A DNA stretch of 64,000 bases from the human T2T-CHM13v2.0 reference genome, Homo sapiens, in assembly GCF_009914755.1 (NCBI RefSeq), contig NC_060934.1; one strand, written 5' to 3'. The notes beneath the pieces are model-generated. The model worked only from the letters and a program-made list of their open reading frames with translations, searched no databases and had not been told where the DNA came from. Positions 24,697-26,642 of the stretch are shown piece by piece. Position numbers and translations under genes: made by a program. Numbering within the stretch: the first letter of the stretch is position 1; every line of letters starts with the position of its first letter.

Positions 24697-24829
24697 CTGG
24701 CACCTGGCGGGACTCCTTCATGTCCAGGATATCCCTGATGTAGAGTTTTGCAAAGGCTAGAAACACAGGATCCAAACCCCACAAGAGGGAAGGGGTCTCC
24801 TCTTCACACCGGCTGGATCCAGGCTGCAT
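24697..24829 (-). CDS. STN1: STN1 exon 2 coding part (codons 1-45)
   Basis: Translates [44 protein letters not shown](G), the human STN1 N-terminus. ATG at 24829, donor G|gtatgt at 24697/24696; 133 nt, phase 1. Confidence 0.98.
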
Positions 24830-24891
24830 CAAGAGGCAGGGCTGTGGCTTCCAGCTAACTCTGAAAGGTTCTGCATCACTGAGTCAAGCAT
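24830..24891 (-). other. STN1: STN1 exon 2 5'UTR part
   Basis: Pyrimidine tract and acceptor tttctgtgtcccatctag| lie 62 nt upstream of the ATG. Confidence 0.8.
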
Positions 24892-24939
24892 CTAGATGGG
24901 ACACAGAAATGAGGATGCAATGCGTTTAACGTGGGTCAA

Positions 24940-25900
24940 AGTGGCACGGCCCTGACGCTGCTCCCAGGTGGGCGTCCAGGACTCCAGGAGGGGTGAACGC
25001 AGGGATCCAGGGCCCTGTCAAACTCCATGCCACGGGGCGTGTTAAGAGGCGTTCCTCACGTCAGGACGCCTGCGTTCCTTACGGCTCTCCCGCTGTTCTC
25101 CTTCCCACAAAGCACCAACTTCGGAACGGCTAAACATCAACTTTCACTCTGGGAAGATACGTCTGTACAGGCGTAGCAGAAACCGCTTGGGGTCCCGGGA
25201 GGAACGGGCGCCCTCGCAGCCCTGCACGTGTTGGGGCATAGTGGATGGGTCTGACTGTCGCTCTGCCCTAAACTTTCCGCTTTTGGGGATGAGCCAAGAA
25301 AAGGAGGAAAAAAGATACTAAAAAATGGACCCACTTGTAGCCCCTCCCGCCGCCTGCAGCTCCAGGAGCCCTGCGACCTGGCCCTTCCGGCGCTCGGAGC
25401 CGCTGGCGGCGACGACCCCGCCCGGCGCAGGAGCAGTTGGCTGAGGTCGTCTCTGGAGTTCCGGCCTGAGCCCGCCCCCTGCCCCGCCAGGGACCAACCC
25501 CGGTCTCCCCGCCAGCGCATTTCCTTTCTGCTGCAGCGCCTCGCCACGGCTCCGCCCCATCTCTCCCGAAGTCCCGCCTCATCCCACCCAGACCCCACCC
25601 ATCCCGCCGCGGCCACGCCCCATCCTGCCCGAAGCCCCGCCCCATCCCGCCCGAAGCCCCGCCCCATCCCGCCGCGGCCCAACCATCCGCTAGGCCCCAT
25701 CCAGCCGAAGTCCAGCCCGTTCCGTGCCCCGCCTCAGCGCAGCGTACTTTTGGTTCAGGCAGCGCTGCAGCCCCGCCTTCGTGCTAGCCTCCACCGCTGA
25801 GGCCTAGGAGGCGACCTTGAAATTCCTGCAGTTCTAACGCCGCTCTTCTAGTCACCTTTCACCCCTCCTCCTGCTGGTGGCGGGACCCTGAACCTGGGCC
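24940..25900. promoter_or_regulatory. CpG island / TATA-less promoter of STN1 with multiple GC boxes
   Basis: The only CpG-dense stretch in the window; repeated CCCCGCCC (Sp/KLF) motifs at 25550-25735. Confidence 0.9.
25335..25450 (-). other. STN1: STN1 non-coding exon 1 (5' end approximate)
   Basis: Donor CTACAA|gtgggt at 25335/25334 inside the CpG island. The TSS cannot be fixed from sequence alone. Confidence 0.65.
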
Positions 25901-26642
25901 TCCTAGAGGTTGGGTCAGGATCAGACTATTTTTCTTTTTGATTCCTGATATGTAAAACAGATAAAAAGTAAGCAGTGCCACGAGTGCATTGTGGCATATT
26001 TTAAATGTTCATTTACAGTTGGTAAGTGACCTGACTCACACACTTAGGACTCTAGTTTCACTTGGAGATGTCAATATCTAAATTTGAGCCCTCGAGTGAA
26101 TGTGAGGTCTTGACTCTGCCAGAGACTAGCCGTGCAAAATCATGACAATACATTTTGTCTCCTTTACCCTTGTTCGGTCTACAGTCTGGAAGGTTGTACA
26201 CTTAAGAACTTTGAAAAGCTGGCATTTTGGTAAATCATGGCCACCTTGATGGTGCTTAGTCTCCAGAATTTCTATTTTAAAGTGAGGAAAGATAGCCACG
26301 TTCCACTCCCATAAAGAGCTACGTTACCCGAGACGTCAGGAATTCTTCCTAATTTACAGAGACTCTGGAAAATGGCAGGGGAGTACAGATCACCCTGGCA
26401 GACCATTCCCGGGGGAGGCAGGTGGTGGCCAAAGAGATAATTGCTAAACTATTTATCAGAGAAGGAACTTGGAGCCGCTGGAATGGAAAGTGTGTGTGTC
26501 ATTAGACCCATGGCATTTAATTACCTCCCCGGCCATTTAAGAAGCTCAAAAACAAGAGTCCTTGGTAAAATACATTGCCCAGATTCTACTGCAATGAACA
26601 CTAGGAAATGTAGGGTTTAAGATTTAATTAAGAGAAGACACT

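What the first reader, a model, noticed from the sequence alone, without database searches (positions are those of the whole stretch)
24827..24891. uORF whose stop codon overlaps the STN1 start codon (TGATG)
Seen: on the minus strand exon 2 begins with ATG CTT GAC TCA GTG ATG CAG AAC CTT TCA GAG TTA GCT GGA AGC CAC AGC CCT GCC TCT TGA ([20 protein letters not shown]). The A of TGA (24829) is the A of the STN1 ATG. The uORF has two AUGs, the second with G at -3, whereas the main AUG context is weak (ttgATGc: T at -3, C at +4). Known: uORFs repress downstream initiation, and UGAUG-type stop/start overlaps mediate termination-reinitiation in some viral RNAs. Inference: STN1 protein output may be throttled or coupled translationally, which matters for a subunit of a stoichiometric telomere/replication complex.
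Basis: partly seen in the sequence, partly recalled or inferred. Interest (0 to 1): 0.7.

Follow-up and report, generated by a model that had tools for sequence, protein, structure and literature searches.

The report
Known overlapping uORF that dampens STN1
The human telomere gene STN1 carries a short upstream reading frame whose stop codon overlaps the gene's own start codon; a 2018 paper already described it and found about 3.4-fold more reporter output without its two start codons, so it is a known brake that likely works by intercepting scanning ribosomes.

Summary
In detail: exon 2 of STN1 opens with a 20-codon ORF (second AUG, 15 codons) whose TGA shares its A with the STN1 ATG. It is already published. 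Torrance and Lydall 2018 (PMC6089452) describe these two overlapping ORFs and the one-base overlap; mutating both AUGs raised reporter output 3.1-3.8-fold in HCT116 cells. Repression is therefore supported. The viral-type termination-reinitiation idea is not: the leader has no UGGGA TURBS core, and shuffled leaders give such an overlap in 1-2% of cases. Predicted ortholog proteins that run through the leader make the one-base overlap impossible in 18 of 32 named species. The second AUG is compatible in 16 of the 18 models that reach it, and in a tarsier model it sits in frame with STN1 while the usual start reads Val. Best reading: an out-of-frame decoy ORF that leaves no room for rescanning, so STN1 is likely made mainly by leaky scanning. 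Stress control, mRNA decay and effects on human telomeres remain untested in what I read. Already known; low interest.

The parts
24829..24891 (-). Upstream overlapping ORF, 20 codons plus TGA, frame +1 relative to the STN1 CDS
   Evidence: described in PMC6089452 Fig 5, which counts 19 and 15 aa
24889..24891 (-). uAUG1, first three bases of exon 2; weak context after splicing (C at -3, C at +4)
   Evidence: not compatible with 16 of 16 non-primate ortholog models checked, and Val in the tarsier model
24874..24876 (-). uAUG2 at -47, 15-codon ORF; G at -3, C at +4; likely the older and stronger decoy (inference)
   Evidence: compatible Asp-Ala dipeptide in 16 of 18 ortholog models that reach it; Met in tarsier
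24829..24831 (-). TGA stop of the upstream ORF, sharing base 24829 with the STN1 ATG
24827..24829 (-). STN1 start codon, weak context (T at -3, C at +4)
   Evidence: 100 of 168 anchored ortholog proteins start in this register
24892..24893 (-). Intron 1 acceptor AG directly before uAUG1
   Evidence: RefSeq NM_024928.5 row supplied with the task
25335..25419 (-). Exon 1, 85 nt, 76% G+C, no AUG and no UGGGA
24892..25334 (-). Intron 1; when retained it adds three more uORFs (AUGs at 25239, 25137, 25028; 31, 31, 30 codons)
   Evidence: same three AUGs (181, 283, 392 of the 590-nt leader) in PMC10705125
24757..24759 (-). Next stop (TAG) in the upstream ORF's frame, 70 nt into the CDS; where the ORF would end without the TGA

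Best explanation
Two upstream AUGs open an out-of-frame ORF that stops on the first base of the STN1 start codon, and they likely lower STN1 output by capturing scanning ribosomes that then have no room to restart. Shown: the anatomy (sequence) and 3.1-3.8-fold higher reporter output without both AUGs (published). Inferred: ribosomes that start at uAUG1 (weak context) or uAUG2 (G at -3) translate 20 or 15 codons and terminate with the STN1 AUG already under the ribosome, so ordinary resume-scanning reinitiation, which needs spacing to reload initiator tRNA, is unavailable and most 40S subunits are recycled. STN1 protein then comes mostly from the fraction that leaks past both AUGs, about 30% of the output seen without them. 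The functional property is likely 'an out-of-frame ORF that stays open up to or past the main AUG'; the exact TGATG junction is likely incidental.
For: Anatomy. Reporter: PMC6089452, (mutant 3.76, 3.50, 3.53, 3.19, 3.13 against wild type 0.86-1.14). Reviews state that overlapping uORFs repress and that the main ORF is reached by leaky scanning, and that a one-base overlap likely precludes ordinary reinitiation (passages of PMC10275272 and PMC5972666). Yeast STN1 analogue: oORF start mutation gives 10-12-fold more protein, and moving its stop away raises Stn1. No TURBS core, no notable local fold (z = +1.1). One-base overlap impossible in 18 of 32 ortholog models while uAUG2 is compatible in 16 of 18.
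Against: The human experiment is one reporter in one cell line. Both AUGs were mutated together, the construct carried promoter and intron 1 (primer at 25915), one mutation lies at exon base +3 next to the acceptor, the main AUG had luciferase G at +4 instead of the native C, and I saw no human mRNA measurement or stop-codon mutant in the text read. Effects on splicing or mRNA level are therefore not excluded. I found no ribosome-profiling report for these AUGs. Ortholog evidence is indirect (protein models, not DNA): Asp-Ala shows ATG only if the codon is GAT, and several neighbouring positions are just as conserved. The overlap stays possible in 14 of 32 models (12 rodents, galago, pig).
Confidence: 0.78

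Rival explanations
1. Termination-reinitiation coupling: ribosomes that stop at the TGA restart directly on the overlapping AUG and supply a substantial share of STN1, possibly more under stress.
For: Same UGAUG geometry as GAD and SLAMF1 (PMC5972666 passage). A bare UGAUG junction rose from about 1:325 to about 1:8 reinitiation under arsenite in HEK293T cells (PMC9856671 section 3.1). The ORF is short enough to keep initiation factors (established knowledge).
Against: No UGGGA in the leader; the nearest look-alike, CGGGA at -77, lies upstream of both AUGs and is mostly paired in the predicted fold. Removing the AUGs raises output. The overlap is impossible in 18 of 32 ortholog models. In yeast, moving the stop raised Stn1.
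Confidence: 0.1
2. The ORF acts mainly through mRNA level: termination 132 nt upstream of the exon 2/3 junction triggers nonsense-mediated decay, or the reporter mutations changed intron 1 splicing.
For: Yeast STN1 oORF lowers mRNA about 4-fold through NMD. The stop lies more than 55 nt before the next junction (coordinates; junction rule is established knowledge). The reporter contained intron 1 and a mutation at exon base +3.
Against: The luciferase reporter has no exon junction downstream of the stop yet showed the 3.4-fold effect. Adding three more uORFs by intron retention did not change STN1 mRNA decay in A549 cells (PMC10705125 passage).
Confidence: 0.08
3. Tolerated accident: the AUGs lower reporter output but have no selected role at the endogenous locus.
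For: Out-of-frame ORFs reaching the start arise in 29-44% of shuffled leaders; 24.5% of human transcripts have one (PMC6089452). uAUG1 and the junction look lineage-restricted, the pig model lacks the uAUG2 stretch, and rodents and rabbit have an in-frame AUG at -21.
Against: Such ORFs are depleted genome-wide (24.5% observed against 49% expected), yeast STN1 has an analogous ORF with strong telomere phenotypes, and uAUG2 is compatible across carnivores, rhinoceros, ruminants and elephant.
Confidence: 0.04

Closest known systems
Human STN1 oORFs of Torrance and Lydall 2018 (PMC6089452)
   Same: The identical element: two AUGs sharing one stop whose third base is the first base of the CDS; their synthetic fragment matches the window's sequence at the intron 1/exon 2 boundary.
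   Different: The paper counts 19 and 15 aa; the window gives 20 and 15. It did not separate the two AUGs, mutate the human stop or compare mammals in the parts I read.
Budding yeast STN1 oORF (same paper)
   Same: Short out-of-frame ORF ending at the STN1 start, repressing output.
   Different: 6 codons, starts at -13, ends a few bases inside the CDS, 10-12-fold effect through NMD and Tma20/Tma22; no sequence relation is claimed, so analogy rather than shown homology.
Repressive overlapping uORFs (oORF class)
   Same: Out-of-frame uAUG, stop at or past the main AUG, main ORF reached by leaky scanning.
   Different: Minimal overlap of one base, the borderline case between uORF and oORF.
TURBS-dependent termination-reinitiation (caliciviruses, influenza B BM2)
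   Same: Stop and start codons share a base.
   Different: No UGGGA motif 1, upstream ORF is short rather than long, and it lowers rather than enables downstream output.
Human SLAMF1 long-isoform uORF4 (UGAUG, 29 codons; seen only as review passages)
   Same: Cellular short uORF overlapping the main AUG by one base.
   Different: SLAMF1 has a TURBS-like sequence according to the review; STN1 has none.
STN1 intron 1 retention uORFs (PMC10705125)
   Same: Same leader, uORF-based repression.
   Different: Three other AUGs inside intron 1; the two exon 2 AUGs were left intact in all its constructs.

Membership tests
Repressive overlapping uORF (oORF) | AUG upstream of the main start in the mature mRNA, out of frame | tested here: met
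   two AUGs, frame +1, in the annotated spliced leader
Repressive overlapping uORF (oORF) | Stop codon at or beyond the main start codon | tested here: met
   TGA 24831-24829 shares base 24829
Repressive overlapping uORF (oORF) | Removing the uAUGs raises downstream output | not testable with these tools
   published reporter: 3.1-3.8-fold (PMC6089452); not my experiment
Repressive overlapping uORF (oORF) | Ribosomes initiate on the uAUGs at the endogenous locus | not testable with these tools
   no profiling data at hand; no such report
TURBS termination-reinitiation | Stop and start codons within about 20 nt, often overlapping | tested here: met
   one-base overlap; criterion from PMC10275272
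TURBS termination-reinitiation | Motif 1 with UGGGA core complementary to 18S rRNA helix 26 | tested here: not met
   no TGGGA in the 147-nt leader; CGGGA at -77 is upstream of both AUGs; definition from PMC5972666
TURBS termination-reinitiation | Motifs 2/2* forming a stem that exposes motif 1 | tested here: not met
   no motif 1 to expose; CGGGA is 4 of 5 paired in the predicted fold; exon 2 region folds no better than shuffles, z = +1.1
TURBS termination-reinitiation | Downstream ORF depends on translation and termination of the upstream ORF | not testable with these tools
   published AUG mutant raises output, the opposite direction; human stop mutant not seen in the text read
Conserved-peptide uORF | Peptide conserved in its own frame across species | tested here: inconclusive
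   no hit for the uORF frame among 24-77 aa proteins, a weak test; start and stop differ among mammals

The most novel reading that the evidence does not exclude
The one-base overlap makes human STN1 a stress switch: when recycling factors are withdrawn under oxidative stress, ribosomes that finish the upstream ORF restart directly on the STN1 AUG without a TURBS, lifting CST levels just when replication and telomeres are under strain. The decoy AUG itself is an old placental element that lineages have rewired, up to becoming the real start codon in tarsier.
Probability: 0.1. Interest if true: 0.55.

Novelty: already known. Interest (0 to 1): 0.13.

Why it matters
STN1 dosage affects telomere length and capping in yeast, and STN1 mutations cause a human telomere syndrome (PMC6089452 introduction), so a 3-fold translational brake is a plausible place for regulatory variants. 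That point was made in 2018. What remains open is modest: which AUG does the work, whether the residual output is leak or restart, whether stress lifts the brake, and whether it changes human telomeres. The comparative result here (junction not conserved, second AUG likely older, a tarsier model with that AUG in frame) sharpens those tests but does not change the class of element.

Tried and rejected
TURBS-like signal: none. Search for the upstream-frame peptide with the stop read as X among 24-77 aa proteins: no candidate; weak evidence. In-frame N-terminal extension in human: blocked by TGA at 24886 (-57); only TTG at -3 and AAG at -21 are open near-cognates. Alternative acceptors that would skip the AUGs: CAG sites exist at 24879, 24871, 24861 and 24842 with fewer pyrimidines (6-10 of 17) than the annotated site (13); usage could not be tested. 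Paper searches: OBFC1 + upstream open reading frame + ribosome profiling, 0 papers; STN1 + telomere length + untranslated region + variant + uAUG, 0; STN1 + DENR + MCTS1, 0; OBFC1 + rs4387287 + untranslated, 2 papers, the one opened gave no position for the variant; STN1 + tarsier, 1 listing, not opened. The paper's human uORF table (S2 File) was too large to read, so the genome-wide count of one-base overlaps was not obtained. Earlier scan findings were not available. No mammalian DNA collection was on hand, so conservation rests on protein models only; genome searches were not run.

Full report
Observation. The minus strand from 24891 reads ATG CTT GAC TCA GTG ATG CAG ... GCC TCT TGA, 20 codons and a stop, and the A of TGA at 24829 starts the STN1 [14 protein letters not shown].... 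Splicing the annotated exons gives a 147-nt leader with exactly two AUGs, at -62 and -47, both in frame +1 and both ending at the overlapping TGA. The first AUG is the first three bases of exon 2, and after splicing its context is weak (C at -3, C at +4); the second has G at -3; the main AUG is weak (T at -3, C at +4). An in-frame TGA at -57 blocks any longer in-frame extension from exon 1.

Chance. In 20,000 shuffles of the leader, an AUG-initiated ORF ending in a one-base overlap appeared in 1.0-2.3% depending on the shuffle, two such AUGs in 0.07-0.4%, and any out-of-frame ORF reaching the start codon in 29-44%. Across the window, 74 of 2289 ATGs have the same arrangement. The junction is uncommon for one gene but would be expected in many genes; function has to come from other evidence.

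It is in print. The first literature search (STN1 + uORF, 12 papers) returned Torrance and Lydall 2018 (PMC6089452). I read its abstract, results, discussion, methods and supplement legends (parts 1-4 of 6 and section 22), its primer and plasmid tables and part 1 of 12 of its dataset; figures are not held and the human uORF table was too large to read. It reports two human oORFs of 15 and 19 aa sharing a stop whose third base is the first base of the CDS; the window gives 20 for the longer one. Changing both ATGs to ATA raised luciferase 3.76, 3.50, 3.53, 3.19 and 3.13-fold against wild-type values of 0.86-1.14 in HCT116 cells. Limits of that test: the insert ran from 25915 through promoter, exon 1 and intron 1 to the ATG, both AUGs were changed together, one change is at exon base +3, the main AUG had luciferase G at +4, and I saw no human mRNA measurement or stop mutant. 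In yeast the analogous 6-codon oORF gives 10-12-fold repression through translation and NMD, and moving its stop away raised Stn1. A second paper (PMC10705125; passages and one methods section) shows that retention of intron 1 adds three further repressive uORFs, whose AUGs match 25239, 25137 and 25028.

Is it viral-type coupling? Reviews (passages of PMC5972666 and PMC10275272) define TURBS-dependent reinitiation by a UGGGA core that pairs with 18S rRNA, and state that overlapping uORFs usually repress, with the main ORF reached by leaky scanning. The STN1 leader has no UGGGA. A CGGGA at -77 lies upstream of both AUGs and is mostly paired in the predicted fold, and the exon 2 region folds no better than its shuffles (z = +1.1). 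In PMC9856671 (section 3.1 read) a bare UGAUG junction behind a long ORF gave about 1:325 reinitiation in unstressed HEK293T cells and about 1:8 under arsenite, and repression by a short overlapping uORF fell from 4.5- to 1.3-fold. That argues against coupling at baseline but leaves a stress-dependent restart open.

Other mammals. No mammalian DNA was available, so I used predicted STN1 proteins whose N-terminal extensions read through the leader in the CDS frame. Two searches gave 309 and 295 hits, of which the best 120 each were listed, 170 distinct proteins. Of 168 that could be anchored, 100 start in the human register and say nothing about the leader; 68 have an offset. I kept one model for each of 32 named species, dropping unnamed records, duplicate isoforms and two elephant models whose offset is only an extra Glu. 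A one-base overlap needs the residue before Met to be Leu, Val, Ile or Met. It is Pro in 8 caniforms, 2 felids, rhinoceros and rabbit, Gln in 4 ruminants, Arg in elephant and Ser in tarsier: impossible in 18 of 32, possible in 14 of 32 (12 rodents, galago, pig). These rows are kin, about seven lineages against three, and the sample is biased to species with extended models. uAUG2 hides in an Asp-Ala pair at -16/-15; that pair is present in 16 of the 18 models that reach it (pig lacks the stretch, tarsier is discussed below), which is compatible with ATG but does not prove it, and Phe, Arg and Pro nearby are about as constant. uAUG1 cannot be hidden in frame +1 in 16 of 16 models checked; the register is ungapped for caniforms and rhinoceros, less certain for felids, ruminants and elephant. 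Without the TGA the human frame would run on to TAG at +70, so species with uAUG2 and no junction stop would have a plain oORF (inference).

Tarsier. Model P0156 reads VLDSVMQ, matching the human upstream-ORF frame at 6 of 7 residues (0 of 200,000 shuffles reach that; pairwise E = 0.018), then switches to the human CDS frame, and has Val where human has the start Met. The Met is 36 nt from that Val against 47 nt in human, which fits an 11-nt deletion that puts uAUG2 in frame; it is the only Met in that stretch. This is direct evidence that uAUG2 exists outside apes and suggests it became the start codon in tarsier. It rests on one predicted model from a 118-kb contig and could be an assembly error. 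Rodents and rabbit instead have an in-frame Met 6-7 codons upstream, where human has AAG at -21.

Mechanism. Shown: anatomy; net repression of about 3.4-fold in a published reporter. Inferred: scanning 43S complexes are partly captured at two imperfect AUGs, translate 20 or 15 codons and terminate on top of the STN1 AUG, with no spacer in which to reload initiator tRNA, so most are recycled; STN1 comes from the roughly 30% that leak. Confidence 0.78. Rivals: direct restart at the overlap (0.10), action through mRNA decay or splicing (0.08), tolerated accident (0.04).

Novelty. The element and its repressive effect are already known. My searches found no report of ribosome profiling at these AUGs, of DENR/MCTS1 dependence, of variants in them or, from the listing alone, of the tarsier arrangement; the library lacks most subscription papers and large profiling catalogues sit in supplements that were not searched, so these may exist. 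Other papers were seen only as search listings or single passages (PMC13631847; PMC3478524; PMC10976276). Verdict: real, functional in a reporter, published in 2018; interest 0.13.

Noticed in passing
protein P0156 (Carlito syrichta model), residues 63-82; human equivalent window 24827-24891: The tarsier model carries the human upstream-ORF peptide (6 of 7 residues) fused in frame to STN1 by an apparent 11-nt deletion, with Val at the usual start: the decoy AUG may have become the real start. One predicted model only.
   Followed up: partly
window 24848-24850 (-21, AAG): Rodent and rabbit STN1 models start at an in-frame Met 6-7 codons upstream, where human has AAG; mouse-like models may therefore not reproduce the human leader logic.
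   Followed up: partly
window 24719-24721: In-frame Met37 has a better context (G at -3) than the main AUG and is the next AUG downstream; leak past the weak main AUG could give an N-terminally shortened STN1. The five non-human models whose sequence I saw there have Leu.
   Followed up: no
window 24879: A CAG 12 nt inside exon 2 could serve as an alternative acceptor that removes uAUG1 but keeps uAUG2; joined to exon 1 it would form a new AUG at the junction in the same frame. Usage unknown.
   Followed up: no
window 24884-24886 (-57): The in-frame TGA that closes the human leader is a sense codon in carnivores and rhinoceros models, several of which have 27-residue N-terminal extensions from an upstream in-frame Met.
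   Followed up: partly
window 24892-25334: Intron 1 holds three uORFs of 30-31 codons, already described as an intron-retention control of STN1 (PMC10705125).
   Followed up: yes
window about 25540-25700, minus strand: The promoter has several imperfect copies of a G-rich unit (ggcgggatggggcggggcttc-like), suggestive of GC boxes or G-quadruplex potential.
   Followed up: no
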